Source: a virus
Length of the DNA stretch: 64,000 nt
IMG/VR virus record: IMGVR_UViG_3300020183_000053
Span: 10,874 to 74,873 of that record
Direction: 5' to 3' (one strand)
Of this stretch, positions 6,321 through 57,300 are shown one piece after another. Each line of letters begins with the position of its first letter. Positions within the stretch are counted from its first letter, which is position 1. Below the pieces are notes generated by a model. That model had not been told where the DNA came from. It saw only the letters and a list, made by a program, of their open reading frames with translations, and did no database searches. The position numbers and the translations under genes are program-made.

Positions 6321-6326
6321 CGGGTG

Positions 6327-10944: not shown

Positions 10945-10975
10945 ACGCCCGCCCGGTGGTGTGCCGGGCGGGCGT
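10945..10975 (-). terminator. GC-rich stem-loop after the ssb-like gene
   Basis: Perfect 12-bp stem ACGCCCGCCCGG/CCGGGCGGGCGT, 7-nt loop, no U-tract. Confidence 0.5.
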
Positions 10976-10989
10976 GTCGGTTGCGCAGC

Positions 10990-11550
10990 TTAGAACGGGA
11001 TGTCGTCATCCTGGGCGGGTGCGCCACCACGCACACCACCACCGCCACCACCACCACCGCCCGCAGCGCGCTTCTGGCGGCCATCGCGGCACCACTGCTC
11101 GGCCTCGGTGATGGTGTCCTCCATCGCCTCGGTGATCTCGCCACCGTACAGCGCGAACTCCTGCACCTTCACGCGGGTCTTGCCGTTGTACGTGTCGTCC
11201 ACCAGCGTCACCCACACAGGGCGGCGGGTCAGCACGGTCCACGTGGCCTCGGGGTCCATCGCATCCCAGGGTGCGGTCTGGCCCAGCGCCTTGGCCAGCT
11301 GCTGCACGCGCCACACAGCCCGCTGCGACAGCGTGAGCGTGTCGTAGAACAGCCCGCGCACGTCGGCACCGTTTCCCTGCGGGTCGTCCACCACACACCA
11401 CCGGGCGTCGATTTTGTCATTCCCGGCGTTGCTTCGCCCGTACTCCATGTCGGCGCACCACACCAGCTTCCTGCCCGGCTGCACCTCGGGCCGCCGCTTG
11501 CCACCACCACCGCCCTGCTGCGGGGCGTTCGGGTCTACCATGAATGCCAT
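10990..11550 (-). CDS. Single-stranded DNA-binding protein (DUF669-like)
   Basis: Gly-rich linker and acidic DDDIPF tail; follows the Sak4-like gene; RBS AAGGAGG. Confidence 0.75.
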   Translation of the reverse strand: MAFMVDPNAPQQGGGGGKRRPEVQPGRKLVWCADMEYGRSNAGNDKIDARWCVVDDPQGNGADVRGLFYDTLTLSQRAVWRVQQLAKALGQTAPWDAMDPEATWTVLTRRPVWVTLVDDTYNGKTRVKVQEFALYGGEITEAMEDTITEAEQWCRDGRQKRAAGGGGGGGGGVRGGAPAQDDDIPF

Positions 11551-11578
11551 CGTACTGTCCTCCTTGATTGTTGTGGGG

Positions 11579-18809: not shown

Positions 18810-19445
18810 CTACCCGTCGCGCGAACGTCGCCACAGGTATCCCACGCCGTCGAACGGTCCTGCGTGCGCGTCCCTGCGCCACTCGTCGGTGCCGTCGTAC
18901 TCGATGGACACTGCGTTCAGCACCACCGCCTCACCGTAGCCGGGCAGCGCCATCCACCCGTGCGCCCAGCCGGGCGGCACCACCACCTGCGCAGGGTTCC
19001 GCTGCGGGTGCAGCACCACCTCGTGCACCTGCAGGCCCACAGTGTGCCCCAGACGCTGCGCCCGCTCGGCGGCGATCACGTCGTAGAGCGCCAGCAGCAC
19101 AGCACCCTGCACCACCACGAACCTGTCGTGCTGGCGGGCGTGCAGGTGCCACCCCTTCACGACGCCCTCGGCGGTGGTGCTCAGGTAGACCTGCGCCACC
19201 TCGCCGCGCCTGGGCATCGGCACAGCGCCGGGCTGCACGTCCCTGTGCCAGCTCTCGCGGTGTGCCTCCACCAGCGCGCCACGCGCGTCCACGTGCCAGC
19301 GCAGCGGGCGCAGCTCCACCGGCTGGGCGTGGTACGGCTGGTCGCCGCCCAGGGTGCGCAGGGTGGGCGGTGTGGGTGCCTGCGGGGTGTGTGCGTGTCT
19401 GGTGTAGCCAGCCCGGTGGTAGATTTCGTCAGCGTCGTAGATCAC
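18810..19445 (-). CDS. rmlC: dTDP-4-dehydrorhamnose 3,5-epimerase-like cupin
   Basis: DARGALVE, QVYLS...GVVKGWHLH, VVPPGWAHGW; GTG start with AAGGAG. Confidence 0.8.
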   Translation of the reverse strand: MIYDADEIYHRAGYTRHAHTPQAPTPPTLRTLGGDQPYHAQPVELRPLRWHVDARGALVEAHRESWHRDVQPGAVPMPRRGEVAQVYLSTTAEGVVKGWHLHARQHDRFVVVQGAVLLALYDVIAAERAQRLGHTVGLQVHEVVLHPQRNPAQVVVPPGWAHGWMALPGYGEAVVLNAVSIEYDGTDEWRRDAHAGPFDGVGYLWRRSRDG

Positions 19446-23968: not shown

Positions 23969-24676
23969 TTAGAGCGAGCGCCACGCAGTATCGGCAGGCT
24001 GCACTGGAAGCCGCCGCAGCTCGGCATCCTTGCGCGATGTGACGATGCGCTGCAGCGCCGGGTGCTGCGGGTAGCGCGTGGCCAGCAGCTGGGCGGGCGT
24101 GACCGGGTGCGGGCCGCCCAGCTCCACCACCCGCTGCAGCTGGTGCGCAGGGTAGCCTGCCCAGGTGCCCAGCAGCGGCACCAGCTCGTCCACCCAGCAG
24201 CGGTGAGCGTAGCTGTAGCCGTTGGCCCACTGCCAGCCTGCCACCTGCTCGGGCGTGGTGAACGCCACCCGCGCCACGTAGCCACCCGCCAGCAGCACCA
24301 GCTGCTCGGCCACCAGCTTAGCGGCGGCGTACACTCCAGCGGCATCCTGGCGCAGCACGGCGTGCACGTAGTCGGTGGACACGTACAGCAGCGGCACCTG
24401 CGCGTCGGTGGCCGCAGCGATGGCGTGCTGCGTGGTGAGCACCGTGTCGCGCACGCAGGCGCCCGGCTGCAGCTGGGCACGTGCCACGTCGGTCCAGCTG
24501 GCCAGCAGCAGCAGCCGGTGCGGCTGGTGCTGTGCCACTGCTGCCTGCACCTGTGTGGGTTCCGCCCAGTCCACCTCGTCGCGGGGCGGTGCCACCACGT
24601 CGTGGTCACGCTCGCGCAGCCACGCCACCAGCAGGCGCCCCAGGCGCCCACCACCACCGCTCATCAGCACACGCAT
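23969..24676 (-). CDS. rmlD: dTDP-4-dehydrorhamnose reductase-like SDR
   Basis: GGGGRLG, ASWTDV, YVSTDYV, YAAAK. Confidence 0.75.
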   Translation of the reverse strand: MRVLMSGGGGRLGRLLVAWLRERDHDVVAPPRDEVDWAEPTQVQAAVAQHQPHRLLLLASWTDVARAQLQPGACVRDTVLTTQHAIAAATDAQVPLLYVSTDYVHAVLRQDAAGVYAAAKLVAEQLVLLAGGYVARVAFTTPEQVAGWQWANGYSYAHRCWVDELVPLLGTWAGYPAHQLQRVVELGGPHPVTPAQLLATRYPQHPALQRIVTSRKDAELRRLPVQPADTAWRSL

Positions 24677-42960: not shown

Positions 42961-43147
42961 CGCGCACCTCCAGCCGCACGGTGCGCCCGCAGGCACCGCA
43001 GCCCAGGATGGTGTCGCTGCCATCGCCACGCGCCCGCCCGGCTGCAGCCTGGGCGGGCAGTGTGGCCAGCGTGGCGCCGCAGGTGCACCGCACCCGCAGC
43101 GGCGGTCCAGCCGGTGCGTTCCCGGCCTGCCAGTCCTGTGTCCTCAC
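42944..43147 (-). CDS. Small Zn-ribbon protein
   Basis: VRCTCGATL...CGACG; GTG start overlaps upstream stop. Confidence 0.5.
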   Translation of the reverse strand: MRTQDWQAGNAPAGPPLRVRCTCGATLATLPAQAAAGRARGDGSDTILGCGACGRTVRLEVRDGSPR

Positions 43148-43581
43148 TGTCCGCTCCTGTAACTGGCGCGCACAGCCCACTGACCGCGCGCAAAGTATGC
43201 CCTCGTCGCCTCGTTCCAGCCATCCTCGGGGCGCTCGGTTTCCACACAGTAGCCAGCCAGCGCGATGCCATTCCGGCGCAGCAGCTGGTGCTGCAGCGCG
43301 GCGGTGCACGCATCGTAGATCCGCGCTGCCGTGCCAGAGCTTTCCCGGTCATAGCAGAACAAGTCCATCGTAACGACTTGGAACGTGCTGGTGGGGCTGG
43401 TGCGGCCAGCCACCAGATCGAACACCACCAGCGGATAGGTGGCGCCGCCCGCGTCTGGTGTGAGCAGGTGCGCGCCGTGCACCTGCGCACCCACCAGTGC
43501 GGCCACACCAGCGTCGGCCAGCAGGTGGCTGCGGACCAGCAGCTTCAGCTGCTCGATACTTGGCGCAGGGTTCAGTGGCAT
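43144..43581 (-). CDS. Tail terminator/completion protein
   Basis: LLADAGVAALVG, YPLVVF; position before the tail tube. Confidence 0.7.
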   Translation of the reverse strand: MPLNPAPSIEQLKLLVRSHLLADAGVAALVGAQVHGAHLLTPDAGGATYPLVVFDLVAGRTSPTSTFQVVTMDLFCYDRESSGTAARIYDACTAALQHQLLRRNGIALAGYCVETERPEDGWNEATRAYFARGQWAVRASYRSGQ

Positions 43582-44120
43582 CACGGTCCTCCAGCGCCGA
43601 AGCGAATACCCGCCTGCGTGCGCAGCTCTGCACCCATCACCAGCACGAACGCGCGCAGCATCTGCGGGCGCACGTGTGGGGCGCTGGCTGTCAGCCACAG
43701 CACGTCGCGCGGCAGCATCTTTCGCGTGCCTTCCACCACCCAGGACACGTGAGGCGGCACGTTAGCCCACCATCCGAGCAGGTAGTACGGGCGGGCGCCG
43801 CCACCAGCGCCACCAGCGCGGAACTTGACTTCGCCCTGCAGCGCGGCGGCCATGCGCCCGGTGCGCGTGTGCACCACGTGCGTTTCGCCAGCGTGCACTC
43901 TGATAGTGCCGTGCCGCTTGGCATACGGGTGATCCATCCGGCGCAGCTGCTGCAGTGTGTGGTCGGTGCGGGTAAGGTTGGCGTAGACCGCGCCCTTCGC
44001 CACCTCGCCCGCCTTGCCCATCGCCCGGCCAGCGGCATCGCGCAGCACCCGGTCGGACAGCTGGCGCAGGTTGATCACCGTCGCCTCAATGCCGACCACC
44101 CGTGTGCGGTTCGCTGCCAT
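43581..44120 (-). CDS. Neck protein (HK97 gp10-like)
   Basis: RTGRM, WVVEGTRKMLPR. Confidence 0.65.
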   Translation of the reverse strand: MAANRTRVVGIEATVINLRQLSDRVLRDAAGRAMGKAGEVAKGAVYANLTRTDHTLQQLRRMDHPYAKRHGTIRVHAGETHVVHTRTGRMAAALQGEVKFRAGGAGGGARPYYLLGWWANVPPHVSWVVEGTRKMLPRDVLWLTASAPHVRPQMLRAFVLVMGAELRTQAGIRFGAGGP

Positions 44121-46945
44121 CAGCCCACCTCGCAGCCACTATCCGCCAGCGGGGCCGCAGGGTCAAGCGCATCCAGCTGCAGCTCCAGCAGCGCGTCCAG
44201 GTCAACCTCTGCGGGTACCGCAGAACGCCCCGCGCCCAGCTTCGGCTGGTCAGGTGCGTGCTCGGCCAGCCACTGGTGCATCTGCTGCACCTGCCCGTGC
44301 AGCGTGTGGCTGGGTGCCAGCCGCCGCTGCGCTTCACCCAGCAGCAGCCGCCCGATGCGCAGGTGGTACAGCGCGGCCTCGCGGAATGGCAGGTACCCGT
44401 TCCCCGCGCAGCGCATCGCTGCCTCATAGCACGCCCACTGTTCCTCGCGGCGGTTATCGTTGCCGTATTGCAGGCCCAGGCTCACCCATGCGCCTGGGCT
44501 GGTGGGGTCGTCCTGCAGCTGCTTCACGAGCAGGCGCGTGTACCGTGCCAGCTTGGCCTGCATGGCCTCGGGGCCGCCGCTCAGGCCACGGTGGTCCACG
44601 GTGAACGGGGCATAGCGCACCTGCGGGTGGATGCCGCGCTCACCCAGGGCGGCCATTCCCTTTTCCAGTGTCTCGTGCACCCTGTAGCTGAACCGCAGGA
44701 TGCCACCTGCCAGCCGGAACAGCCGGGTGTTTTCGGACCAGTTCCAGGCGCCGTCTGCCCGCCAGTTACGGAACCGGAACAGCCACGCCCAGCTGTCGGT
44801 GACCTCGACCATGCGGCGCAGCGCAATCGTGGCCAGGAACGTGCTCTCATACTGCTCGTCGGGGTCCATCACAAGGCACCACGCGCAGCCCAGCTCGCGC
44901 AGCCGGTCCACGCCCGCGTTCCGCGCTGTGCCCAGGTCGTCATTCAGCGGGTGGTACACCCACTCCGCACCGTACCGGGCGGCCACGTACTGCACGTCGG
45001 CGCTGGGCGCGGTGCCCTCGGGGCCGGTCCACACCAGCACCACGTGGTCAGCCAGCGCATACAGGCTGTCAAGGTGGCGGTGCAGGTCGTACAGCTGCTC
45101 GCCATCGTGCCACAGCATGGTGAACCCCAGCCCGTTGTCAGGCTGCCAGGGTGCCAGCTGCATCCCCTCCTCGCGCACGATGTGGTCGTACCCGCCCGCG
45201 CCACTGGTGCGTCCCTGGGTGAGCACACTATCGGGGTTCTTGTCTTTGCCACGGTAGAACGCCACTTTCCGCAGCCGGTCAGCGTGGCGCAGGTATCCAT
45301 AGTGACGGAACCGCAGAGCGGCCACGCGCTTGGCGTTCTCCCCCGCATCGGGCACGTTCCCGCAGTGCAGCCCGATGTCGTTGCCCGCCAGCACGTTCTG
45401 CACGCTGGGGTGGGTCACACGCCACAGGCGGAACCCGCGCATCGAGCTGCGATAGTCGGGGCCGCACCACGGCACGTCCACGCGGCACAGGCGCGGGCTG
45501 TCCCAGTGGTTCGCCCAGCCCACGTCATAGTGGGTCACCAGCGGGTCGGGGTTGCGCATCCACTTCTGCAGCAGGGCGCGGTCCACCCGTTCCTCCACCA
45601 CCTCGTCGTGGTCAACGCTCAGCAGCCAGTCGGGCGCAAGCTGCAGCGCCAGCCGGATGGCGGCGTTGCGCTCGTCGCGCTCGTTCCACTCGCCCACCCA
45701 GCTGCGCACCAGCACAGGCACGTCACGCTGGCTGCAGGCACTGGCCAGCCGCTCGGCCCACACCTGCAGCACGGCGGCCTGCTCGTCTGGCGTGGCGTCA
45801 CGGCAGGCCTCCAGCAGCGCCTGCTCTGCAGGCTCGAACAAGCCAGCACGCCACTCGGGTGTGGTGGTAACCTCCGCAGGGTTGCCGGTGAGCAGGATAG
45901 CGATGCCGTCCACCAGCTGGCTGGTGCGCCCGATGCTGGCGCGCAGCATCGCAAGGTCGTTCGGCACGTGCAGCTTCACGCGCCACAGCGCCACCAGCCG
46001 CTGCTCGCGGTCGGTGTAGCCCTCCCAGGTGCGCAGGTACGTCGGCAGGTTCGCCAGCCCGCGCTGCGCATCGGGGAACACAGCGTCCAGCGTCTGGTGG
46101 CCCAGGTGGTGAACGTAGCAGTTAGTCGCGATGGCCATACGCCAGCCCAGCAGCTGCACACGCGCGGCGATGTCGTTGTCATCGTACCCGCCGATACCGT
46201 ACTGCGGGCGGATCAGACACGGCTGGCCCTCGTGCTGCTCCAGCAGCTGCAGCAGGCACTCGCGGCCATACAGCACGCACAGCCCTGACAGGAAGCTGGC
46301 GGCCATCGGTGTCCACCCGTTCTGCTCGGCGTAGTCAGCAGCGAAACGGTCCAGCATGGCGTCTGCATCTGCCGTGAAGGCGCTGCCTGTCGCCATCTTT
46401 ACGTCGGGCGCACGCACCTGCTGCATACCCGCCACCACGTTTGACACGGGGCCGACCATGCCGATGCGCCCGTAGCCACCCACAGGGTGCGCGGGCGCCT
46501 GCTGACCGTAGCCCGCCACCTCACCCTGCAGCCGAACGTCGGGCGTGTGCAGCGCACCGTGCATCCGGTGCAGCCAGCCGGGCGTCACGCGCACGTCGTC
46601 GTTCATGATCACCACAGCGGGCGGCAGCCCACCGTGCTCCAGCGCCACCTGCACCCCTGCGTTCACAGCGCCAGCCCAGCCCGCAGGCCCAGGCATCTGC
46701 ACCCACTGCAGCAGCACCTGCTGGCGCTCGCCGCTCGCCGCCTGGACCATCGCCGCCACCTGCTGCTGCAGCTGGTCGATACTGCCGTCTGCCAGCCCCT
46801 GCGGCAGCGGGTTCACGACCAGCATCAGCCGCCAGCGGTCCACCTGTGTGCAGGTGAGCAGGCGCTGCACGCACGGCAGCACCAGATCGGCGCGCCCCAT
46901 CGTGGGCACAATGACGAGGCAGTGGTGTTCGTTGTCGTGGTGCAT
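44120..46945 (-). CDS. Multi-domain glycosyltransferase (three GT2/GT-A-like domains plus TPR-like C-terminus)
   Basis: VIVPT..MNDDV..GWL..GGYDDND; RNAAI..LSVDHDE..HYGY; ARNAG..VMDPDE..RVHE; helical C-terminus. Confidence 0.85.
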   Translation of the reverse strand: MHHDNEHHCLVIVPTMGRADLVLPCVQRLLTCTQVDRWRLMLVVNPLPQGLADGSIDQLQQQVAAMVQAASGERQQVLLQWVQMPGPAGWAGAVNAGVQVALEHGGLPPAVVIMNDDVRVTPGWLHRMHGALHTPDVRLQGEVAGYGQQAPAHPVGGYGRIGMVGPVSNVVAGMQQVRAPDVKMATGSAFTADADAMLDRFAADYAEQNGWTPMAASFLSGLCVLYGRECLLQLLEQHEGQPCLIRPQYGIGGYDDNDIAARVQLLGWRMAIATNCYVHHLGHQTLDAVFPDAQRGLANLPTYLRTWEGYTDREQRLVALWRVKLHVPNDLAMLRASIGRTSQLVDGIAILLTGNPAEVTTTPEWRAGLFEPAEQALLEACRDATPDEQAAVLQVWAERLASACSQRDVPVLVRSWVGEWNERDERNAAIRLALQLAPDWLLSVDHDEVVEERVDRALLQKWMRNPDPLVTHYDVGWANHWDSPRLCRVDVPWCGPDYRSSMRGFRLWRVTHPSVQNVLAGNDIGLHCGNVPDAGENAKRVAALRFRHYGYLRHADRLRKVAFYRGKDKNPDSVLTQGRTSGAGGYDHIVREEGMQLAPWQPDNGLGFTMLWHDGEQLYDLHRHLDSLYALADHVVLVWTGPEGTAPSADVQYVAARYGAEWVYHPLNDDLGTARNAGVDRLRELGCAWCLVMDPDEQYESTFLATIALRRMVEVTDSWAWLFRFRNWRADGAWNWSENTRLFRLAGGILRFSYRVHETLEKGMAALGERGIHPQVRYAPFTVDHRGLSGGPEAMQAKLARYTRLLVKQLQDDPTSPGAWVSLGLQYGNDNRREEQWACYEAAMRCAGNGYLPFREAALYHLRIGRLLLGEAQRRLAPSHTLHGQVQQMHQWLAEHAPDQPKLGAGRSAVPAEVDLDALLELQLDALDPAAPLADSGCEVG

Positions 46946-47023
46946 CTTCTGCGCTCCCCGCCTCTCGGGCGTGTGTGTGGGGTGCGCAGTGTATCGCGGG
47001 CGGGCTACCTTGGGGAGCCAGCG

Positions 47024-47653
47024 TCAGGGCGCGTACCTGTCAGCCCGCAGCTGCCAGTGGTGTGGGCGCACGCCGAAGCCCACACGCACCTCACGCACGC
47101 CACCCACCAGCCACTGGTCGCCAGTGGCCTGCTCCACGATGTAGTCCTGCGGGCTGGGCGCCCAGGTTTCCTCATAGTCCAGCAGGAACGTGGCGGCGTC
47201 CATCGCCTGCACGCCCTGGTTCTGCGCTGGTGCGCGCATGAACCCAGACCACCCCAGCACGGCGAGCTTCGCCTCGGCCACTGTCACCAGCATGAACTGC
47301 GGCGTGCCGTCCGCACTCACCGCCTGCACCGCCACTGTCGGCACGGTGGCCTCGTTCGCCAGCCCGGTGGTGGCCACGCTGGTCAGTGTGGCGAAACGCT
47401 TGGTCGTCACCTGGGTTCCGTTTGCCGCGAAGGTTAGCGTTTCGCTCTGTGCCGCACCACCGGGTGCCGTGCCCACCAGCTCCACGGTGCCGCTGCCTGT
47501 GGTGCCGCCAGCCACAGTCACCTGCAGGAACGCCTGCCCCAGCAGGGCGCGGGTCGGCGTCAGCGTAGCTGCTGCGGTGGTGGCCACCAGCGCGAACGCC
47601 GTCTTTCGGCGCACGTCCACCACCGTGTTCGCGCTGCTGGTGACCGTGCTCAT
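47024..47653 (-). CDS. Thr-rich virion protein, C-terminal head-closure-like domain
   Basis: Position in the head-tail region; C-terminal D.IV....W.V..V...HHW pattern. Confidence 0.55.
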   Translation of the reverse strand: MSTVTSSANTVVDVRRKTAFALVATTAAATLTPTRALLGQAFLQVTVAGGTTGSGTVELVGTAPGGAAQSETLTFAANGTQVTTKRFATLTSVATTGLANEATVPTVAVQAVSADGTPQFMLVTVAEAKLAVLGWSGFMRAPAQNQGVQAMDAATFLLDYEETWAPSPQDYIVEQATGDQWLVGGVREVRVGFGVRPHHWQLRADRYAP

Positions 47654-48159
47654 GCCTTGGTGCCCCACACGAACGTGTCCAGCCCATTCCGCTCCAGCCG
47701 CCCCTGCAGGCTGGCCCACCCACAGGCGGCGCGCAGCACCTGCAGCATTTCGTCGGGGTCGCGCCCCCCGTAGTAGCCGGGCGTCGGGCTGTCCTCCAGG
47801 TGGTGCTCGGGCCGCAGCCTGCTGGCACAGCTGAACGCCAGCAGGCCACCGGGCCGCAGGTGCTGCGCCGCTGCCTGCAGTGTCTGCTGCCAGAACGGGT
47901 CATGCTCCAGCATCTCGGTGCTCACCACCACGTCCACCGGGCCACCCACAGGTGGGTGCTCGTGGGCGATGCCCACCACGTCCACGCCAGCGCCAGCGTA
48001 TGCGTCGATACCCAGGTAGTACGACGGCGCCGGGAACAGGCGGCGCGGGCTGCCGTTGATGTCGCGGCTGCCATACTCCAGCACTCGCGCACCAGCGGCG
48101 AACAGGTGGGGATGGTTCAGGCGCAGCCCGCTCAGCCAGTCCATGACGGTGGCGTGCAT
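47650..48159 (-). CDS. Class I SAM-dependent methyltransferase
   Basis: VLEYGSRDING, GID...GVDVV, DVVVSTEMLEHD, LRPGG. Confidence 0.85.
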   Translation of the reverse strand: MHATVMDWLSGLRLNHPHLFAAGARVLEYGSRDINGSPRRLFPAPSYYLGIDAYAGAGVDVVGIAHEHPPVGGPVDVVVSTEMLEHDPFWQQTLQAAAQHLRPGGLLAFSCASRLRPEHHLEDSPTPGYYGGRDPDEMLQVLRAACGWASLQGRLERNGLDTFVWGTKA

Positions 48160-48779
48160 CAGCTCTCCAGGCTGGGCGGCGCCAGCGTTTCCGTGGTGGG
48201 GTCTGCCGCTGGCGCGTCGGCCTGCGCCTGCGTGTCGTGCGCTGTGGGCGCCTGTGCGGCCTGTGGGGGCGCCTCGGGCTGCGGGGCGGCGTCGGTGCGG
48301 ACGGTGCGCTTGCGGGCCGCCTGCGGGGCGCTGGCGGGCGCCTGCAGCGTGTGCTGCGGCTCCCACGCACCGGCTGCCAGTGCCTGCACCTGCACCTGCG
48401 CTGCATCAGTCACCACCACCCGCAGCGCCGCATCGGCCACTGTCAGCGCGTGCACCTCGTGGTGCGTGGCCAGTACCTGCAGGGTGGCGGCCAGCTCGTC
48501 CACGGGGCCAGCCACCAGCACCACCACGGCAGCGCGCAGGTCCGCGCTGCCCAGCTGCGCGCCCAGGTAGGCAGGGTCACCCGCCAGCAGGGTGGCACGC
48601 CCCACGTGCGCGCGCCAGCCGCCCGCTGCAGCCACCGCACGGCCACGCCCCACAGGCGGCAGGGTTGCGCCCGGTGGCTGGTCCAGCAGCAGCACGTGGC
48701 GCGCATAGTGCAGCCCAGGCTGGGCGCTGGGCAGCAGGTCCATCGTCGGCAGCACGCCCACCACGTCGTTCTGGCTCAC
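48159..48779 (-). CDS. Hypothetical protein with Ala/Pro/Thr-rich tail
   Basis: Coupled to rmlB and the methyltransferase by overlapping start/stop. Confidence 0.55.
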   Translation of the reverse strand: MSQNDVVGVLPTMDLLPSAQPGLHYARHVLLLDQPPGATLPPVGRGRAVAAAGGWRAHVGRATLLAGDPAYLGAQLGSADLRAAVVVLVAGPVDELAATLQVLATHHEVHALTVADAALRVVVTDAAQVQVQALAAGAWEPQHTLQAPASAPQAARKRTVRTDAAPQPEAPPQAAQAPTAHDTQAQADAPAADPTTETLAPPSLES

Positions 48780-49765
48780 GATGCCTCCATTTCAGTGAAC
48801 GGCGCCAGCTCAACGCTGGAGCCATGGTATTCGCTCAGCAGGGCGCGCAGGTTTTCGGGCGCCAGCAGGTCGGCGGTGGCTTCCCAGCCCAGGGCGCGCA
48901 GGCGGCTGCCGTCCACGCGGTAGGCTGCATCCTGCCCAGGCCGGTCAGGGCTGGTGACCACAGCCTCGTCCTCGTGCACGCCCAGCTGGGAGGCCAGCGC
49001 CAGCACCACCTCGCGCACGCTTGCCACACGTGGTCCGGCGATATTGAAGGTGGCACCAGTGTTCACCGCGCCCGCAGCCAGCCACGCGGCCACGTTGCAC
49101 AGCGCGTCCGCGAACTCGTGCACCGCCACCCACTGTCGCAGCTGGGTGCCGCCACCGTGCAGTGGCACAGGGCGGCCCGCCTGCAGCAGCGCGCAGGCAA
49201 TCGGCAGCAGCTTCTCGCCCAGCTGTCCCGCCCCCCATGCGTTGCACCCGCGCGTGATGGCGTACTGCAGCCCGGCGCTGGTGCCCATCGCGCGCACCGC
49301 CAGCTCCCCGGCTGCCTTGCCTGCGCTGTAGGGGCTGCTCGGGCGCAGCACGCTCCACTCTGGATAGGGGCCACTCAACGCAGGGCCATACACCTCGTCG
49401 GTGCTGCAGTAGACCAGCGGCACACCAGCCGACGCGCACGCAGCGGCCACCACCTGGGTGCCGTAGCCGTTGACCAGCATAGCCTCGCCCGGCTGCTGCA
49501 GGCTGCGGTCCACGTGCGACTGCGCCGCAAGGTGCAGCACTACGTCGGGGCGCGCGCCTGCCAGTGCCACCCGCACGTCGTCGGGCGAGCACACGTCACC
49601 CAGCCACAGCTGGTCGCCCAGCGCGCTCTCCACAGCGCCCCACCCGGTGGCGGCACGGGTGCGCGCGTCCAGCACGGTGACACTGCGCGCGCCGTGCGCC
49701 TGCGCCAGCTGGCGCACCACGTGCTGCCCGATGAACCCTGCACCACCTGTGACCAGCGTGCGCAT
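48776..49765 (-). CDS. rmlB: dTDP-glucose 4,6-dehydratase
   Basis: TGGAGFIG, HLAAQSHVDRS, STDEVYG, PSSPYSAGK, DRPGQD..Y. Confidence 0.92.
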   Translation of the reverse strand: MRTLVTGGAGFIGQHVVRQLAQAHGARSVTVLDARTRAATGWGAVESALGDQLWLGDVCSPDDVRVALAGARPDVVLHLAAQSHVDRSLQQPGEAMLVNGYGTQVVAAACASAGVPLVYCSTDEVYGPALSGPYPEWSVLRPSSPYSAGKAAGELAVRAMGTSAGLQYAITRGCNAWGAGQLGEKLLPIACALLQAGRPVPLHGGGTQLRQWVAVHEFADALCNVAAWLAAGAVNTGATFNIAGPRVASVREVVLALASQLGVHEDEAVVTSPDRPGQDAAYRVDGSRLRALGWEATADLLAPENLRALLSEYHGSSVELAPFTEMEAS

Positions 49766-49989
49766 CACCGCCCCCTCGTGCGCCGTGTGCGGCGCGGCTC
49801 CGCTGCTGGCAGTTCCACCTGCTGCCAGCGTTTGCGCTGCAGCACCACCGCAGCCGTGGCGGTGTGTGCCTGGGCCAGCCACCCGCCTGCGGTGCGCTGG
49901 CAGGTCACCGCCTCTTCTGGCGTGTGTACCACCAGCCCCTCGTCAGGGTCGCCGTCAACGTGTGGGCGTGTCCAGTGCGTGGTGGTCAT
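49765..49989 (-). CDS. Hypothetical protein
   Basis: Gene tiling. Confidence 0.5.
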   Translation of the reverse strand: MTTTHWTRPHVDGDPDEGLVVHTPEEAVTCQRTAGGWLAQAHTATAAVVLQRKRWQQVELPAAEPRRTRRTRGR

Positions 49990-50555
49990 GCGGTGGCGTC
50001 CGCAGGGAACGCCCGCACGTACCGAGCCAGGATTGCAAGCGCGGCGGCTGGCAGCGCGCTCTCGTCCAGCGTGTACCTGTAGCCGGAAGCGCCCTCACTG
50101 CTCATTCCAGCGTGCCGCGCCCGATTGAACTCTGCCACAGCGCACAGCGTGGCGGCGTGCTGCAGGTCCGCAGGCGGCTGCGCGTACCCGAACGTGTACG
50201 TGACCGCCACCTGCTGGCGCCCCTCGGGGAAGTAATACCCCAGCGGGGCCAGCCGCACGATGCCGGGTCGGTTGTCCACGTACCACTGCGTGGCCTGCAG
50301 TGTGCTGCCCGTACACACCACTGCCGCCACACTCTCCACAGGGAAGCCACGCAGGCGCAGCTCGCTGGTTCCTGCGTTTTCGATGTCGTACAGCTCAGTC
50401 ACGGTGGTAGCGGTCAGCGCGGCCATGCCGCAGTAAGCCAGCACCTGCTGCTCGCCCACGTCCACGAGATCGTCCAGCAGGGCGTCGTGCATGGTGACGC
50501 CCGCCGGGATGCCGAGAACCCGCTTGCAGCGGGCGGTGCTGGTCAGTGTCGCCAT
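49986..50555 (-). CDS. Head-tail adaptor (gp6/gp15-like)
   Basis: K..LGI....DALL, FPVESV, VTYTFGY..PPADL. Confidence 0.78.
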   Translation of the reverse strand: MATLTSTARCKRVLGIPAGVTMHDALLDDLVDVGEQQVLAYCGMAALTATTVTELYDIENAGTSELRLRGFPVESVAAVVCTGSTLQATQWYVDNRPGIVRLAPLGYYFPEGRQQVAVTYTFGYAQPPADLQHAATLCAVAEFNRARHAGMSSEGASGYRYTLDESALPAAALAILARYVRAFPADATA

Positions 50556-50556
50556 C

Positions 50557-51063
50557 TCACACCTCGGCAGCGCGGGGTCCGCGCCGGTAGCGATAACCGA
50601 CATTCCCATGCGCTGCTGCGTGGCGCCGCTGGCGCGGGGTCAGGTTGCACTCGGCCAGCCCCCGTTCCTCCAGCAGCCGGATGGTGGTGCGCCACTCGCC
50701 GTCCGTGATGCCGCTGGCCTGGACGAGCGCCCGCTTGTCCTGCCACTGGTCGGTGAGCGCCGCGAAGATAGCGCGCTGGCTGGGTGTGCTGATGCGTGGT
50801 TTCGCGTCCTCAAGCGCCTGCAGCCACTCGGCGGTGCAGTCCTGCCAGCCCAGGCACAGCGCCCGCGCGTGTGCAGCCTCACCCTGCAGGAACAGGGTAT
50901 GTGCCACCTCACCACCCAGCTCAATGGCGCGGCTGTCGGTGGCCTCGTCATACGTGGCGAAGGCGATAGGCTGCGCGTCGTGGTGCGCTGCATCCCGGTC
51001 GTAACGCCGCAGGACGAACCGATAGGTGCCTGCAGCTGGCGGGGTGTCGTCGATTGCACTCAT
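50557..51063 (-). CDS. Hypothetical protein with C-terminal winged HTH
   Basis: KRALVQASGITDGEWRTTIRLLEERGL..GYRY; own RBS and class II motif. Confidence 0.6.
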   Translation of the reverse strand: MSAIDDTPPAAGTYRFVLRRYDRDAAHHDAQPIAFATYDEATDSRAIELGGEVAHTLFLQGEAAHARALCLGWQDCTAEWLQALEDAKPRISTPSQRAIFAALTDQWQDKRALVQASGITDGEWRTTIRLLEERGLAECNLTPRQRRHAAAHGNVGYRYRRGPRAAEV

Positions 51064-51238: not shown

Positions 51239-52246
51239 TTAGGTGGCGGCGATACCGGCCAGCACGCTGGCGCCCTTGGTGTTCGCGAGCACCACAGCGC
51301 CGTCCCAGTAGATGTCGAACTGGTCGAACTGGCTGTCGGTGGTGGCCAGCGGCATCATGGTCATCGGGGTCAGCTCTTCCAGGTAGGCGAAACGCTTGTT
51401 CACCACCACCAGCGCGGTGGTGGGGTTGGTGGCTTCGCCCGCGAACGCCGTGATGCTGGTGCCGCTCCAGCTCATGGCGTCAGACATGCCGGTGGACACC
51501 ACCAGGGGGATGCCGTCGTAGGTCCGCACGCGGAACCCAGCGGCGATCTCCACCTCATTGATGAACTGCTGCTGCGCCTGCAGGGCGGCGTTCAGCTTGC
51601 GGATACCCTTGAACGAACCGTAGATAACGAGATCGCTGCGGTTACCGCTGCCGCGCACGCTGTCGATGGTTTCGTCCAGCTTCGCCAGGGTGAGACTGCC
51701 GCCTGCGCTGGCGCTGGTCTGCGCCACCACCTGCCCGCCGACCGCGTTGATGAGGGTCAGCAGACCGTTCATCATATTCGCGTCGCCGCCCGCGCCGTTG
51801 TTCCCGACGAAGATGCACGCCTCCAGCGCCTCGTTGAAGTCGTCAGCCTTCTGCATCATTTCTTCGGCGAGGATGTCGATGTAGCTGCGGCCACGTGCCC
51901 GCATCTTGCGGGTGACGCGCCCACGGGTGGCGAGCGTGGCGTAGGTGAACGTCGCCTGCGCGTAGCTGCCAGTGCTCTCCACCACGCTGTCGGTGTCAGC
52001 CACCCACACGTCGCCCACGCTCATGGAGCTGGCGGTGCGGCGGTTGATGATGGCTGCCGAACCGCTGCCCGGCTTGCGGTCCATCGTCCCCAGGGCGCCG
52101 AACTCGCGGATCGACAGCTGCTGGATGATGCGGTTGGTGAAGTTCTGGACCAGCGTGCTGCCAGCGCCAGCGACGTTGATGGCGCGGGCGAACGCCTCGC
52201 GCTTCGACGGGTCGAGGCCCGCCCACACGGTAGGGGTGGTGCTCAT
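51239..52246 (-). CDS. Major capsid protein (HK97 fold)
   Basis: 335 aa after protease/scaffold; E...FVG, NGL, TYDGIP.V; distinct codon use. Confidence 0.85.
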   Translation of the reverse strand: MSTTPTVWAGLDPSKREAFARAINVAGAGSTLVQNFTNRIIQQLSIREFGALGTMDRKPGSGSAAIINRRTASSMSVGDVWVADTDSVVESTGSYAQATFTYATLATRGRVTRKMRARGRSYIDILAEEMMQKADDFNEALEACIFVGNNGAGGDANMMNGLLTLINAVGGQVVAQTSASAGGSLTLAKLDETIDSVRGSGNRSDLVIYGSFKGIRKLNAALQAQQQFINEVEIAAGFRVRTYDGIPLVVSTGMSDAMSWSGTSITAFAGEATNPTTALVVVNKRFAYLEELTPMTMMPLATTDSQFDQFDIYWDGAVVLANTKGASVLAGIAAT

Positions 52247-54375: not shown

Positions 54376-57300
54376 TCAACCATCACCACCCGACGCCAGC
54401 GCGGACAGCGCCACCGCTGTGCCGCCCTCCACCTCCGCGCGCGTCCAAAACACCAGCACGCATCGGCAGTGTCCGAGGCACAGCGTACCCTGACCGGGCC
54501 TGCGCGACAGGTCACCCAGCCGCACGAAGCCCTGCGCCCCCTCGGCCTCACAGGTGGGGCAGCTGTTCCCGCCAGCGTTCACCCACTCCACCATCCATTC
54601 CACAGGTGCACCGTTCACAGTGGTCACGGTGCGGTCCAGCGCATCGGTCAGCTCGCGGTTCGCCAGCCCCACCAGCAGCCCGCTCCAGTTATCGATGCGG
54701 GCTGCCTGGGCCGCGAACGTGGCGCGCACCACTTCTGCCACGTCCCCGGCTGTGTCTGTGGGTTCCACGTCTGTGATGCGGCTGCGTTGCACCGTGCTGG
54801 CGCGGCTCAGCACCTCGCGCACCCGCGCCTGCAGGCCGCCCACCAGCCCGCTGGGCAGCGACAGCCAGCCCATCGCGTCCTGCCAGTAAGCGCGCCCGCT
54901 GGTGCGCCACTGCGCCTCTACAGGCCCCAGACTGATGCGCTCGGCAGCCTCGTGGCCCAGCTGGGCGGCGCGCAGATAGAACGGCTCGGTGCGTACTGCC
55001 CAGCTGCTGGCCAGCTTGTCCAGCTCGGCCTCCACGACGCGCTGCGCACGCCCGGCCTCGGCCACGTCCAGCACGCCGTCGCGGCCATAGGCTGCGCCCA
55101 CAGCTGCCTGCACCGCCACGCTGGCGCGGTCGTACAGCTCAGTCACCGCCAGCTGGTATTCAGCCACCACCTCGGCCAGCTTGCGCAGGTTCAGCGTGCG
55201 CATCCCAGCGAACCGCCCAGCGGGCTGCCACTGGCTCGGCAGCCACTCACCCGTGGTGGCCATGCTGGGCACGTCCCGCCCCTGCAGGTGGTGCTGGTGG
55301 TGCTGGTGGTGCTGGTGGTGCTGGTGGTGCTGGTGGTGCTGGTGGTGCTGGTGCCCGCACTGGCCAGTGCCGCACAGCGCACGCGCCACCAGTGCGCTGC
55401 GCTCGTCGTCGCCTGCGGTGCTGTACGGGTGCCCCTCGGGCAGCAGGTCGGTGTCGTGCGCCGCCTTGCCTCGCGGCTCGCCGGTGCGCAGTAGGAACAG
55501 GAAGCTCTCCACCCGCGCGAATGCCCACTGCTCGGGGCTGGCCACAGTGGGGCGCACGCTTTCGGGGTTTGTGTGGTAAGCGCCGACGCCCCGCTTGAAC
55601 ACCTCTGCCAGCACCTCGGCGGTGGTGCTGCGGTCGGCATCGTTATCGACCTCTGCGTTGTGCTCGCGGGCCTTTTCGCGCAGGGTGTCCTGCACACTCT
55701 CGGACAGGTCGGCCAGCGCCGCACGCAGCTGGGCACGCTTGGCGTCTACCTTGGCCTTTTCGGCATCCACCAGCTCTTTCATGTAGGCTTCGCCACGGTC
55801 ACCCACTGCAACCCACTTGATCTGCGCGATGACCCCAGGCAGTCGGAAGTCTGCCCGGTGGCGCGCCACCCAGGCCTCACGCAGCCGGATGGCACCTTCC
55901 TCGGTGTCGTTACGCGGGCGCATCTTGCCACCACGACGCACGATGGGAGCCAGCTTGTCATACTGGCTATTGCCACGTATATTCCCACCCTTTCGCCAGA
56001 TGGACGGGTATTCGGTGCGCAGGTTTTCCGCGTACCGCAGGTCGAACAGCTCCCACTGGCTACCGCCCAGGCTGACCGGCTCGTTATCGCCTGCCGCCGG
56101 GAAGTTAGTGGGGTCAGTGTCGCCGACAGCCTTGCGCAGCGGGCTGCTATCATCGTCAGTGCCGCCTTCTGCCGCAGTGGCGTTCCCTGTGTCTGCGGCG
56201 TAGCTGTTCGCGGGCGCAAGTCCAGCCACCAGCTGGTCCAGCGGCAGCGGCCCCATATTCGTGTCCACCAGCGGCACGTCGCCGCCCGCCACAGGTAGCA
56301 GGCCCAGCTGCGCACGCACTTCGTTGACGGTCAGCACGCCACGCTTCACCAGCAGGTCGTTCGCTTGCGCCTGCTGCAGCCGCTGCTGCGGGGTTAGCGG
56401 CTGCGCCCTGTCGAAGCCGAACACCACCTTCCCGCGCGCCTCGGGCGGCAGCAGGCGCGGCAGCACCTGGGCGTTCACGCGCGCCTGCAGCAGCTCTAGA
56501 ATCGGGTTGATCAAGTGGCTGCTGGCCACGTCGAGCTGCACGTTCGCGGTGGCGCGGTTGATATTTTCGCTCTCACCCAGTTCCACAGGCTGCACGCCGA
56601 ACACCCGCCAGATGGTGCGGCGCAAGCCGTCCACCACGTCCAGCAGCTGCACATCTTTCAGCGGCCTGCGCAGCTCCACCCACTTCGCGTCGATACCGTT
56701 AGGCTGCGGGCTGGTGAGCACGCGCAGCTTGTGGTCTTTGCCGCGCATCACCTGCAGGTCGGCGCGCGCCCGCTCCGCAGCCGCACCTGCCACACCACCC
56801 AGCACCAGCAGCCCAGGCGGGATCTCGTCCGCGTCCATCGCCAGCATGGCGTGCTCGCTGCTCAGCAGCACGGTCACGCACTCGTTCACCAGGGTGTCCA
56901 GCAGGCTGACACCGAGATTGCTACGGGTATTCCTGAACAATGACAGGTAACACAGGCGCTCAGGCGGCATCCGCACGATGATGTCGGGCTGCCCGGTGGG
57001 CACGCCCGTTTCGCTCTCCTGCTCGTACCGCAGCAGCACGCCCTTCGCGTCAGTCACCGGGAACCAGCTGCTGCCCAGCCACGGCACCAGCTCCAGCAGC
57101 TTGCCACCCTGCTCGTTCAGCTCCAGGGTGCCAGCGTCGTACACCAGCAGGTCGGTGACCACGCGGGTCATCACCTCCTGCCACGTGTCGCCGTTGCGGC
57201 TGGGCACCTGCAGCCAGTCACGCGCTGCGCGGGCGTGGTCCATCATGCGCCGGTATTCGTCGGCGTTGCGCGGGTCCACAGTGGGCTTCACGTACCAGTC

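What the first reader, a model, noticed from the sequence alone, without database searches (positions are those of the whole stretch)
44120..49765. Candidate virion glycosylation module embedded among head-tail joining genes
Seen: the adaptor gene is followed by an unknown gene, rmlB, another unknown gene, a SAM methyltransferase, a Thr-rich virion gene, a 941-aa glycosyltransferase and the neck gene, mostly with overlapping start/stop codons. Established: RmlB/C/D make NDP-rhamnose, and some actinobacteriophages glycosylate capsid and tail proteins with their own glycosyltransferases. Inference: this phage builds a possibly O-methylated, rhamnose-containing glycan on the virion and supplies its own sugar precursor. 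Late co-expression argues for protein rather than DNA as the acceptor. Ser/Thr-rich candidates are 47024-47653, the tail tube, the capsid and the 27211-28533 fibre.
Basis: partly seen in the sequence, partly recalled or inferred. Interest (0 to 1): 0.8.

Follow-up and report, generated by a model that had tools for sequence, protein, structure and literature searches.

The report
Phage neck-operon triple glycosyltransferase system
An uncultured 75-kb tailed phage carries, among its head-to-tail joining genes, a three-domain sugar-adding enzyme of a protein-glycosylating type plus sugar-making and methylating genes, so it probably sugar-coats its own particle, but no experiment shows this or names the target.

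Summary
On the minus strand, mostly with overlapping start and stop codons, lie: adaptor, 74-aa ORF, RmlB-like 4,6-dehydratase, 206-aa ORF, SAM methyltransferase, a 209-aa gene, a 941-aa glycosyltransferase (GT), a neck gene and the tail terminator.

Refinements:
- The "Thr-rich virion gene" is the stopper (head-closure) protein with a ~100-aa beta-sandwich inserted.
- The GT has three GT-A modules, each with an invariant DXD-type motif, plus a TPR tail.
- Its last module plus TPR resembles SunS/ThuS and GmaR, which glycosylate peptides or proteins.

The GT sits at this position in about 50 IMG/VR loci (28-84% identity, GC 0.33-0.72). No cultured phage or prophage matched. The genes between adaptor and stopper vary between relatives and are mostly NDP-sugar enzymes. 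RmlC- and RmlD-like genes lie elsewhere in this genome; RmlA is absent.

Best reading (about 0.55): late glycosylation of virion protein(s) with a short, possibly methylated 6-deoxyhexose glycan. The acceptor, the sugar and the Ser/Thr-rich candidates remain untested. It is a new variant of a known kind (mycobacteriophage virion glycosylation).

This scan noted the same system earlier on other DNA (e1-6089404, e1-6030850, e1-6096541).

The parts
49986..50609 (-). Head-tail adaptor (gp6-like connector)
   Evidence: phrog_442 E 7.7e-26 and PF05135 weak. Conserved upstream of the cassette in relatives.
49765..49989 (-). 74-aa ORF of unknown function, first gene of the variable cassette
   Evidence: No Pfam, PHROG or NCBIfam hit. 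Homologues of 74-157 aa follow the adaptor in 16 loci. It overlaps the adaptor stop by 4 nt.
48776..49765 (-). RmlB-like NDP-glucose 4,6-dehydratase (extended SDR, 329 aa)
   Evidence: PF01370 E 3e-47. TIGR01181 scores 204 bits, below the cut-off of 365. The ten best PDB matches are all dTDP-glucose 4,6-dehydratases (8shh E 4.5e-45; 1r66 E 8e-43), with STDEVYG and SPYSAGK kept. An SDR of this kind is present in the cassette of 28 of the first 50 loci.
48159..48779 (-). 206-aa ORF of unknown function: conserved ~130-aa domain plus a Pro/Ala/Gln-rich low-complexity tail
   Evidence: No family or PDB profile match. The family occurs in 11 loci, always with a variable low-complexity C-terminus.
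47650..48159 (-). Class I SAM-dependent methyltransferase (169 aa)
   Evidence: PF13489 E 7e-9; phrog_32762 E 9e-24. The nearest solved relative is the UbiG O-methyltransferase, E 7e-5. Homologues are present in 8 related loci. The start codon was corrected.
47024..47653 (-). Stopper / head-closure protein (209 aa) with a ~100-aa beta-sandwich inserted at residues ~17-115
   Evidence: Model pLDDT 90.4. VIA-align matches: GTA stopper 6tba_3A Z 11.8 (106 aligned residues, rmsd 2.3), phage Milano Z 11.0, Pam3, XkdH, Douge, SaPI1. Foldseek probability is about 1 to the same set. The insert matches only generic beta-sandwich / CBM-like folds at Z about 7.
46010..46945 (-). GT domain 1 (residues 1-312): classical GT2 / GT-A with NDD motif at 115-117
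   Evidence: PF13641 E 8e-11, above the curated cut-off. D116 and D117 are invariant in 20 homologues. VIA Z 17-18 to ppGalNAc-T catalytic domains, WrtF, RmlT and TarP.
45161..46009 (-). GT domain 2 (residues 313-595): divergent GT-A with DHDE motif at 445-448
   Evidence: No Pfam hit. hhalign to domain 3: probability 93.7%, E 2e-7. E448 is invariant, and D445 and D447 are nearly invariant. A strand at 440-444 precedes the motif in the model.
44576..45160 (-). GT domain 3 (residues 596-790): SunS/GmaR-like GT-A with DPDE motif at 694-697
   Evidence: D694, D696 and E697 are invariant. The family profile hits SunS (E 2.8e-7), ThuS and GmaR (E 2e-4).
44123..44575 (-). GT C-terminal TPR-like helical domain (residues 791-941)
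   Evidence: The profile hits consensus TPR proteins down to E 5.5e-23. Together with domain 3 it aligns to ThuS (Z 18.2, 254 residues, rmsd 3.1) and SunS (Z 17.0, 257 residues) over model residues ~490-899.
43581..44120 (-). Neck / tail-completion protein (179 aa), probably HK97 gp10-like
   Evidence: It immediately follows the GT in nearly all relatives. Only 2 of 15 homologues hit PF04883, weakly. There is no PDB profile match.
43144..43581 (-). Tail terminator / tail completion gp17-like protein (145 aa)
   Evidence: PF11367 E 2.6e-6, above the cut-off. The ATG at 43581 overlaps the neck gene's stop by 1 nt.
23969..24676 (-). Remote part: RmlD-like reductase (235 aa, short)
   Evidence: PF04321 at 60.8 bits, above the cut-off of 27. 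PDB RmlD 3sc6 E 7e-7 over the N-terminal half. STDYV and YAAAK motifs are present.
18810..19445 (-). Remote part: RmlC-like cupin (3,5-epimerase family, divergent)
   Evidence: PF00908 at 36.3 bits, above the cut-off of 27. PDB RmlC 1rtv E 0.005, with the 'GxH' and 'AHG' segments aligned.

Best explanation
This is a phage-encoded glycosylation system for the phage's own particle proteins, expressed with the head-tail joining genes.

Proposed pathway:
1. The host supplies NDP-glucose; the phage has no RmlA.
2. The phage RmlB-like dehydratase makes NDP-4-keto-6-deoxyglucose.
3. The RmlC- and RmlD-like enzymes encoded elsewhere in the genome can turn this into a rhamnose-type 6-deoxyhexose.
4. 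The 941-aa enzyme uses its TPR tail to hold a folded structural protein. Its three GT-A active sites add up to three sugars in succession.
5. The small SAM methyltransferase caps the glycan or its nucleotide-sugar precursor.

Shown here:
- The gene content and the translational coupling.
- The three conserved DXD-type sites.
- The resemblance to SunS/GmaR.
- The fixed position of the GT in a large phage lineage.
- The variable NDP-sugar cassette.

Inferred:
- That the acceptor is a virion protein, and which one.
- The identity of the sugars.
- That the methyl group goes on a sugar.

Candidate acceptors are the capsid, the tube, or the stopper's inserted beta-sandwich, whose Gly/Thr/Ser loop is at residues ~49-55.
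For: Gene run and expression:
- One co-directional gene run with 1-4 nt overlaps extends from the adaptor to the terminator. There is no excess of promoter- or terminator-like sites.

The GT itself:
- The model is confident (pLDDT 86.8, pTM 0.84).
- It has three GT-A modules. Each has a strand followed by NDD, DHDE or DPDE, and these residues are invariant or nearly so in 20 homologues of 29-73% identity.
- Domains 2 and 3 are paralogous (hhalign probability 93.7%).
- Domain 3 plus TPR matches the peptide/protein glycosyltransferases SunS, ThuS and GmaR by profile (E 3e-7 to 2e-4) and by fold (Z 17-18 over about 255 residues).

Conservation across phages:
- In about 50 IMG/VR loci (GT identity 28-84%, GC 0.33-0.72) the order is conserved: capsid, 168-aa ORF, adaptor, [variable cassette], stopper, GT, neck, terminator, tube, chaperone, tape measure.
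- An independent scan anchored on the capsid protein found the GT in 29 of 38 loci with enough downstream DNA. The other nine are accounted for in the Against line; only one stays unexplained.

The cassette is NDP-sugar chemistry:
- Among 145 non-redundant ORFs: 24 SDRs, 7 or more methyltransferases, 5 GDSL/SGNH proteins, a DegT aminotransferase, a UDP-glucose dehydrogenase and a B12-radical-SAM enzyme.
- One relative has RmlD + RmlB + a TylF-like O-methyltransferase. Another has two SDRs + DegT.

Precedent:
- Cluster O mycobacteriophages use an O-methyltransferase plus three tandem GTs to modify capsid and tail tube (PMC11600133, citing Freeman 2023).
Against: - No direct evidence shows that any virion protein is modified.
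- No structural protein has the C-terminal or mucin-like Ser/Thr tract that marks the mycobacteriophage acceptors (PMC12619734).
- The top fold matches also include polysaccharide polymerases with tandem GT-A domains: K4CP, heparosan synthase 2 and LARGE1.
- Domain 1 is a generic GT2 that also resembles wall-teichoic-acid and O-antigen enzymes: RmlT, TarP and WrtF.
- Some relatives carry the GT without any sugar cassette (L178, L185, L193).
- Of the nine capsid-anchored loci without a GT in range, four are contigs already known to carry it (L028-L030, L055), two carry it further downstream or at the contig edge (G003, G005), two run out of contig (G001, G002), and one (G004) shows no GT in 6.4 kb downstream of its stopper.
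- ORF calls in the high-GC relatives are approximate.
Confidence: 0.55

Rival explanations
1. The enzyme modifies or polymerises a host-envelope glycan late in infection (lipid-linked oligosaccharide, teichoic acid, capsule or LPS). This could mask receptors so that progeny are not lost on debris, or exclude competitors. The cassette would supply the donor sugar.
For: Tandem GT-A polysaccharide polymerases (K4CP, heparosan synthase 2, LARGE1) are among the best Foldseek matches. Domain 1 resembles RmlT, TarP and WrtF, which act on wall polymers. Domain-1-only relatives occur in bacterial chromosomes.
Against: The protein is a globular model with no segment that looks membrane-embedded, though no transmembrane-helix predictor was run. 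No flippase, polymerase or transporter family appears in the 25 listed of 36 Pfam families matched by the 145 cassette ORFs. The TPR plus SunS-like module points to a protein partner. A fixed place between stopper and neck genes across hosts of GC 0.33-0.72 is hard to reconcile with a host-specific envelope target.
Confidence: 0.15
2. The enzyme glycosylates a non-virion protein: an assembly factor, or a host protein such as flagellin or pilin. The latter would match its nearest solved relatives, GmaR and SunS.
For: GmaR glycosylates flagellin and SunS/ThuS glycosylate secreted peptides. These are the closest specific matches. The neighbouring 206-aa ORF has a variable Pro/Ala-rich disordered tail that could be an acceptor.
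Against: The 206-aa ORF family is present in only 11 loci, whereas the GT is near-universal. Strict linkage to connector genes, rather than to early or host-takeover genes, is unexplained under this reading.
Confidence: 0.1
3. The enzyme glycosylates phage DNA as an anti-restriction modification.
For: Phage GTs are classically DNA-modifying, and some hypermodify DNA with diverse glycans (review text in PMC12619734). Other notes on this genome report DpdA-like genes and a preQ0 pathway, so its DNA is probably modified (e1-6100214; not tested here).
Against: No thymidylate-synthase-like hydroxymethylase, which would create a 5-hydroxymethylpyrimidine acceptor, is present in the complete 74.9-kb genome. 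The gene sits in the late neck operon, not with the replication genes. It has TPR and SunS-like architecture. 7-Deazaguanine modifications are not known to be glycosylated (own knowledge).
Confidence: 0.03
4. The protein is mainly a structural or assembly component of the neck (a collar or chaperone), and its GT folds are vestigial.
For: It holds a fixed position between the stopper and neck genes in every relative, even where no sugar cassette exists.
Against: All three DXD-type motifs and many surrounding residues are invariant across 29-73% identity. A catalytically dead scaffold would not be expected to keep them. Sugar-nucleotide genes co-occur in most loci.
Confidence: 0.05

Closest known systems
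Mycobacteriophage virion glycosylation (Cluster O Corndog-type: O-methyltransferase + three tandem GT genes; Cluster F1 Che8-type). Freeman et al. 2023, as summarised in PMC11600133 and PMC12619734.
   Same: Phage-encoded GT activity paired with a methyltransferase. There are three GT modules. The presumed role is decoration of the particle.
   Different: Here the three GT modules are fused in one 941-aa polypeptide with a TPR tail. tblastn of it against 50,697 phage genomes gave no match at E <= 1e-5, so no relation to those GTs was detected. This phage brings its own deoxysugar genes. The structural proteins here lack the C-terminal acceptor tails. The primary paper is not held in the library.
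SunS / ThuS glycocin S-glycosyltransferases (PDB 7msn, 7msp, 7msk) and Listeria GmaR flagellin O-GlcNAc transferase (PDB 22ao)
   Same: A GT2 (GT-A) catalytic domain followed by a helical / TPR substrate-binding domain. Profile E-values are 3e-7 to 2e-4. Fold Z is 17-18 over about 255 residues covering both parts.
   Different: Those enzymes have one catalytic domain and act on a secreted peptide Cys or on flagellin. Here the module is the last of three GT-A domains. Sequence identity is only about 14-15%, and the acceptor is unknown.
Chlorovirus PBCV-1 multidomain capsid-glycan enzymes: A111/114R (860 aa, three GT domains) and A064R (two rhamnosyltransferase domains + an O-2 methyltransferase) (PMC7826918)
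   Same: A virus-encoded single polypeptide with three transferase domains that builds a capsid-protein glycan. Rhamnose and O-methylation are involved.
   Different: It is a giant virus of a eukaryotic alga, with N-linked glycans and no TPR domain. Homology was not tested here. BFVD shows only weak multi-GT matches (TM 0.26 or below, 13% identity or below).
Bifunctional tandem GT-A polymerases (E. coli K4 chondroitin polymerase 2z86, Pasteurella heparosan synthase 2, LARGE1)
   Same: Two GT-A domains in one chain. They are the top Foldseek E-values (3.7e-12).
   Different: They make repeating polysaccharides. Their alignments have rmsd 11-22 A across domains, so only the individual folds match, not the domain arrangement. 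They have no TPR.
dTDP-glucose 4,6-dehydratase (RmlB / DesIV; PDB 8shh, 1r66, 1bxk)
   Same: Full-length alignment with E 4.5e-45. The TDE and YxxxK catalytic motifs are kept.
   Different: It scores below NCBIfam's equivalog cut-off (204 versus 365 bits). Nucleotide specificity (dTDP, UDP or other) is unknown.

Membership tests
GT2 / GT-A fold glycosyltransferases | Pfam GT2 model above the gathering threshold | tested here: met
   PF13641 at 42.8 bits (cut-off 27) and PF00535 at 38.2 bits (cut-off 23.3) on residues 9-295. Domains 2 and 3 do not reach Pfam thresholds.
GT2 / GT-A fold glycosyltransferases | DXD-type metal / nucleotide-sugar motif after a beta-strand, conserved in relatives | tested here: met
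   NDD at 115-117, DHDE at 445-448 and DPDE at 694-697. D116, D117, E448, D694, D696 and E697 are invariant, and N115, D445 and D447 are nearly invariant. Strands 110-114, 440-444 and 689-692 precede the motifs.
SunS/ThuS/GmaR-type protein (peptide) glycosyltransferases | GT-A domain followed by a helical / TPR acceptor-binding domain, with detectable homology | tested here: met
   Profile versus PDB: SunS E 2.8e-7, ThuS E 3e-3, GmaR E 2e-4. VIA: ThuS Z 18.2 (254 aligned residues, rmsd 3.1) and SunS Z 17.0 (257 aligned residues) spanning model residues ~490-899.
SunS/ThuS/GmaR-type protein (peptide) glycosyltransferases | Transfers sugar to a protein or peptide side chain | not testable with these tools
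   Needs an enzyme assay or glycoproteomics.
dTDP-glucose 4,6-dehydratase (RmlB, TIGR01181 equivalog) | Score above the curated equivalog cut-off | tested here: not met
   204.4 bits against a cut-off of 365.1. It is nevertheless the best-scoring model.
dTDP-glucose 4,6-dehydratase (RmlB, TIGR01181 equivalog) | Catalytic Thr-Asp-Glu and Tyr-x-x-x-Lys motifs; closest solved relatives are 4,6-dehydratases | tested here: met
   STDEVYG and SPYSAGK align to the same motifs in 8shh and 1r66. The ten best PDB matches are all dTDP-glucose 4,6-dehydratases.
Complete dTDP-L-rhamnose pathway (RmlA-B-C-D) | All four enzymes encoded | tested here: not met
   RmlB-like, RmlC-like (PF00908, 36 bits) and RmlD-like (PF04321, 61 bits) genes are present. 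No NTP_transferase / RmlA is present in the whole 74.9-kb genome, although the control genomes all scored.
Mycobacteriophage virion glycosylation systems | Phage-encoded GT genes paired with an O-methyltransferase gene | tested here: met
   Here the methyltransferase and the GT lie inside the adaptor-to-terminator gene run. The Cluster O arrangement (three tandem GT genes downstream of an O-methyltransferase gene) is described in PMC11600133.
Mycobacteriophage virion glycosylation systems | Sequence relationship to the mycobacteriophage GTs | tested here: not met
   tblastn of the 941-aa GT against 50,697 phage records, which include the actinobacteriophages (own knowledge of the INPHARED collection), gave no match at E <= 1e-5. 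blastn gave none either.
Mycobacteriophage virion glycosylation systems | Glycans on capsid and tail-tube subunits | not testable with these tools
   Needs mass spectrometry of particles. No Ser/Thr-rich C-terminal tails are seen on the capsid or tube proteins.
Siphovirus stopper / head-closure proteins (SPP1 gp16-like) | Stopper beta-barrel fold, and a gene position between the adaptor and the tail-completion genes | tested here: met
   Z 11.8 to the GTA stopper (106 of 110 residues, rmsd 2.3), and Z 8.0 or above to 15 further solved chains, nearly all phage or phage-like neck and connector proteins. The position is conserved. No Pfam hit.

The most novel reading that the evidence does not exclude
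The neck-operon triple GT is a core gene of a globally distributed, so far uncultured siphovirus lineage. The hypervariable cassette between the adaptor and stopper genes acts as a phage 'serotype locus': it swaps deoxysugar tailoring enzymes (methyl, amino, acetyl, C-methyl) so that related phages display different glycans on the same particle scaffold. This would be analogous to O-antigen or flagellin glycosylation islands in bacteria. Virion glycosylation would then be a widespread environmental phage trait rather than a mycobacteriophage curiosity.
Probability: 0.35. Interest if true: 0.8.

Novelty: new variant of a known kind. Interest (0 to 1): 0.6.

Why it matters
To my knowledge, glycosylation of bacteriophage particles has been demonstrated only for a few mycobacteriophages, where it dampens antibody recognition. 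If this reading is right, three things follow:
- A differently built enzyme does the same job in a very large uncultured phage lineage. It is one chain with three active sites and a protein-binding tail.
- That lineage spans marine to soil samples and host GC contents from 33 to 72%.
- A swappable sugar-tailoring cassette diversifies the glycan between related phages.

This would change how phage surfaces are thought of in adsorption, aggregation, stability and recognition by hosts or grazers. It would also offer a compact one-polypeptide protein-glycosylation tool. The prediction can be tested directly by co-expression and mass spectrometry without culturing the phage.

Tried and rejected
Searches that found no close relative:
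- blastn and tblastn of the module and the GT against 50,697 cultured phage genomes: no match.
- The capsid protein matched only a 70-aa stretch of Bacillus phage PK2.
- One genome per prokaryote species (genome contigs): only domain-1-only hits of 23-33% identity, mostly in Acidimicrobiia and other Actinomycetes MAGs, and no full-length prophage copy. The host therefore stays unknown.
- A search for stand-alone relatives of domain 3 + TPR among shorter proteins returned only fragments.
- Cluster members carry no informative names.
- BFVD gave only weak multi-GT matches.

Genes that stay unassigned:
- 206-aa ORF: no Pfam, PHROG, NCBIfam or PDB-profile match.
- 179-aa neck gene: no PDB profile match and only weak HK97-gp10 hits in 2 of 15 homologues.

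Tests that did not discriminate or gave nothing:
- A search for a sister clade lacking the GT, to see what co-varies, found no clear one. Most apparent absences were contig ends or very long cassettes.
- In the three relatives without a sugar cassette, the ORF before the GT is not detectably related to the stopper. A stopper-insert / GT co-variation test was therefore uninformative.
- Ser/Thr composition did not single out an acceptor.
- The promoter and terminator scan showed nothing above chance.

Tools and papers not available:
- The primary paper, Freeman et al. 2023, is not held.

Full report
**Source.** The window is bases 10874-74873 of a 74,873-bp IMG/VR virus record with direct terminal repeats, rated complete. 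GC is about 0.70 and all genes in the region lie on the minus strand.

**Observation.** ORF listing and family scans give this order, 5' to 3' on the minus strand:

| Gene | Coordinates | Main evidence |
|---|---|---|
| Major capsid protein | 51239-52246 | PF17236 |
| 168-aa ORF | 50557-51063 | none |
| Head-tail adaptor | 49986-50609 | phrog_442, E 8e-26 |
| 74-aa ORF | 49765-49989 | none |
| RmlB-like SDR | 48776-49765 | PF01370, TIGR01181 |
| 206-aa ORF | 48159-48779 | none |
| SAM methyltransferase | 47650-48159 | PF13489, phrog_32762 |
| 209-aa protein | 47024-47653 | stopper fold (see below) |
| 941-aa glycosyltransferase | 44120-46945 | PF13641, PF00535 |
| 179-aa neck protein | 43581-44120 | weak PF04883 in relatives |
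| Tail terminator | 43144-43581 | PF11367 |
| Tube, chaperone, 1639-aa tape measure | downstream | synteny |

Successive genes from the adaptor to the terminator overlap by 1 or 4 nt. The only exception is a 78-nt gap before the GT. No promoter- or terminator-like excess is seen.

**The dehydratase.**
- The best NCBIfam model is dTDP-glucose 4,6-dehydratase, but the score is below the equivalog cut-off (204 versus 365 bits).
- Against solved structures, the ten best matches are all dTDP-glucose 4,6-dehydratases (8shh E 4.5e-45; DesIV 1r66 E 8e-43).
- The alignments keep the STDEVYG (Thr-Asp-Glu) and YxxxK motifs.
- It most likely works as an NDP-glucose 4,6-dehydratase. The nucleotide specificity is open.

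**Other Rml-like genes.** I followed a lead from another note on this genome (e1-6100205).
- A divergent RmlC-like cupin lies at 18810-19445 (PF00908, 36 bits, cut-off 27; PDB RmlC E 0.005).
- A short RmlD-like reductase lies at 23969-24676 (PF04321, 61 bits; PDB RmlD E 7e-7; STDYV and YAAAK present).
- No RmlA / NTP-transferase exists anywhere in the genome.
- No second GT2 gene exists.

**The glycosyltransferase.**
- Pfam sees GT2 only on residues 9-295.
- An alignment of 20 homologues of 29-73% identity shows three blocks, each with a DXD-type motif that is invariant or nearly so: NDD 115-117, DHDE 445-448 and DPDE 694-697.
- The AlphaFold model built on that alignment is confident (pLDDT 86.8, pTM 0.84). 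It places each motif directly after a beta-strand, as in GT-A enzymes, and ends in a helical repeat.
- Domains 2 and 3 are paralogues (hhalign probability 93.7%, E 2e-7). Domain 1 is only faintly related to them.
- The family profile hits TPR proteins, and for domain 3 it hits SunS (E 2.8e-7), ThuS and GmaR (E 2e-4).
- Structurally, residues ~490-899 align to ThuS (Z 18.2, 254 residues, rmsd 3.1) and SunS (Z 17.0, 257 residues).
- Domain 1 aligns at Z 17-18 to ppGalNAc-T catalytic domains and to RmlT, TarP and WrtF.
- Foldseek also ranks tandem GT-A polymerases (K4CP, heparosan synthase 2, LARGE1) highly, but with inter-domain rmsd above 11 A.
- SunS/ThuS and GmaR glycosylate a peptide and flagellin respectively (PDB titles, and established knowledge). 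This is the main argument for a protein acceptor.

**The "Thr-rich virion gene".**
- A model built on 28 homologues (pLDDT 90.4) matches stopper / head-closure proteins: GTA 6tba_3A Z 11.8 (106 of 110 residues, rmsd 2.3), phage Milano Z 11.0, then phiXacJX1, Pam3, XkdH, Douge, Chi and SaPI1.
- The stopper fold is formed by the N-terminal ~16 residues and residues ~117-209.
- Residues ~17-115 are an inserted beta-sandwich with only generic matches (Z about 7).
- Its Thr content (14.4%) is the highest in the region, but it lies in strands and short loops. It is not a low-complexity tract.

**Relatives.**
- Word-based homology search found 109 clusters of 830-1180-aa proteins (plus two shorter entries of 602 and 707 aa) at 30-93% identity. 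Many lie on contigs of 70-100 kb.
- An exhaustive profile search found 1,021 representatives at E <= 1e-30. About 100 are full-length. A second class of ~760-840 aa matches mainly profile positions ~400-900.
- In IMG/VR, 50 loci hold the GT (28-84% identity), with GC from 0.33 to 0.72.
- phmmer with the window's proteins shows the same order in nearly all of them: portal, protease/scaffold, capsid, 168-aa ORF, adaptor, variable cassette, stopper, (sometimes extra genes), GT, neck, terminator, 138-aa ORF, tube, chaperone, tape measure.
- A capsid-anchored scan found the GT in 29 of 38 loci with at least 9 kb of downstream DNA.
- Of the nine others:
  - Four are contigs already known to hold the GT.
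  - Two hold it further on or at the contig edge.
  - Two run out of contig.
  - One (G004) shows the stopper followed by small ORFs and no GT within 6.4 kb.
- No cultured phage and no prokaryote genome holds a full-length copy.

**The cassette.**
- Between adaptor and stopper, gene content changes from phage to phage (spans of 2.3 to about 16 kb).
- Among 145 non-redundant cassette ORFs, the Pfam tally is dominated by NDP-sugar chemistry: SDR epimerase/dehydratases (24), methyltransferases (7 or more), GDSL/SGNH (5), DegT/DnrJ/EryC1 aminotransferase, UDP-glucose/GDP-mannose dehydrogenase and a B12-binding radical SAM enzyme.
- A few DNA-related morons also occur (MT-A70, N6/N4 methylase, dUTPase).
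- Examples:
  - L045 has two SDRs plus DegT.
  - G003 has RmlD-like, RmlB-like, B12-rSAM, an 827-aa multi-methyltransferase with a TylF-like part, another methyltransferase and a GDSL protein.
- Three relatives have the GT with no sugar genes at all.
- The GT is thus the constant element, and the donor-sugar tailoring set is the variable element.

**Interpretation.**
- The best-supported reading is late, cytoplasmic glycosylation of one or more structural proteins by the three-site enzyme. The cassette provides a 6-deoxyhexose, which this phage could take as far as a rhamnose-type sugar, and a methyl cap. Confidence is about 0.55.
- The DNA-acceptor rival is weak. There is no thymidylate-synthase-like hydroxymethylase, and the gene sits in the neck operon.
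- Envelope-glycan and non-virion-protein rivals cannot be excluded.
- The acceptor is unknown. Capsid and tube lack the C-terminal tails used in mycobacteriophages (PMC12619734).
- A specific but speculative candidate is the stopper insert. Its Gly/Thr/Ser loop (residues ~49-55) keeps Ser/Thr in most of the 28 homologues.

**Comparison with known systems.**
- Cluster O mycobacteriophages carry an O-methyltransferase followed by three tandem GT genes that modify capsid and tube (PMC11600133, citing Freeman 2023). Here three GT modules are fused and carry a TPR tail. No similarity to any cultured-phage protein was detected.
- Chlorovirus PBCV-1 has one-chain three-domain enzymes for capsid glycans. 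They include rhamnosyl transfer and O-methylation (PMC7826918). This is a functional analogy only.
- I class the finding as a new variant of a known kind.
- Earlier notes of this scan describe the same system on other DNA (e1-6089404, e1-6030850, e1-6096541). My results were obtained independently and agree with them.

**Limits.**
- The primary mycobacteriophage paper is not held.
- ORF calls in high-GC relatives are mechanical.
- Nothing here is experimental.

Noticed in passing
window 50557-51063 (-): A 168-aa ORF between the capsid and adaptor genes is conserved at that spot in most relatives. It has no family hit. By eye, its C-terminal part looks like a winged-helix motif. Its stop overlaps the called adaptor start by 53 nt, so one of the two starts may be wrong.
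   Followed up: no
L204 (G003:C1:11500-28500) 1582-12969: One relative has a cassette of about 16 kb between adaptor and stopper. It holds RmlD-like, RmlB-like, a B12-binding radical SAM enzyme, an 827-aa multi-methyltransferase with a TylF-like part, a second methyltransferase, a GDSL/SGNH protein and several unknown ORFs.
   Followed up: partly
L045 3161-6235: A low-GC (0.37) relative has two SDRs followed by a DegT/DnrJ/EryC1 aminotransferase (E 5e-78). This suggests an amino-dideoxyhexose rather than a methylated sugar.
   Followed up: partly
L042 8118-8916; L043 8161-8911; L045 8111-8903; L044 4327-5120: In low-GC relatives, a pair of small ORFs (110-158 aa) with coiled-coil-like weak hits sits between the stopper and the GT. 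They could be neck fibres or acceptors.
   Followed up: no
L203 (G004:C1:1-8000): One capsid-related contig has the stopper followed by small ORFs, with no GT, neck or tube hit in the remaining 6.4 kb. It may be a rearranged or GT-less relative, or a chimeric contig.
   Followed up: partly
   Followed up: no
window 54376-57603 (-): The portal gene encodes 1075 aa. The portal domain covers only residues ~85-434, and the long C-terminal extension has only weak hits (DUF5824).
   Followed up: no
L192 15601-17409; L200 12548-19126: There are architectural variants. One is a 602-aa GT. Another is a locus where the GT follows the adaptor directly and the stopper homologue lies about 3 kb downstream, after the terminator.
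   Followed up: partly
cassettes of several relatives (alignment A5): Some cassettes also carry DNA-related morons: MT-A70, an N6/N4 DNA methylase, dUTPase and a dCTP-deaminase-like protein.
   Followed up: no
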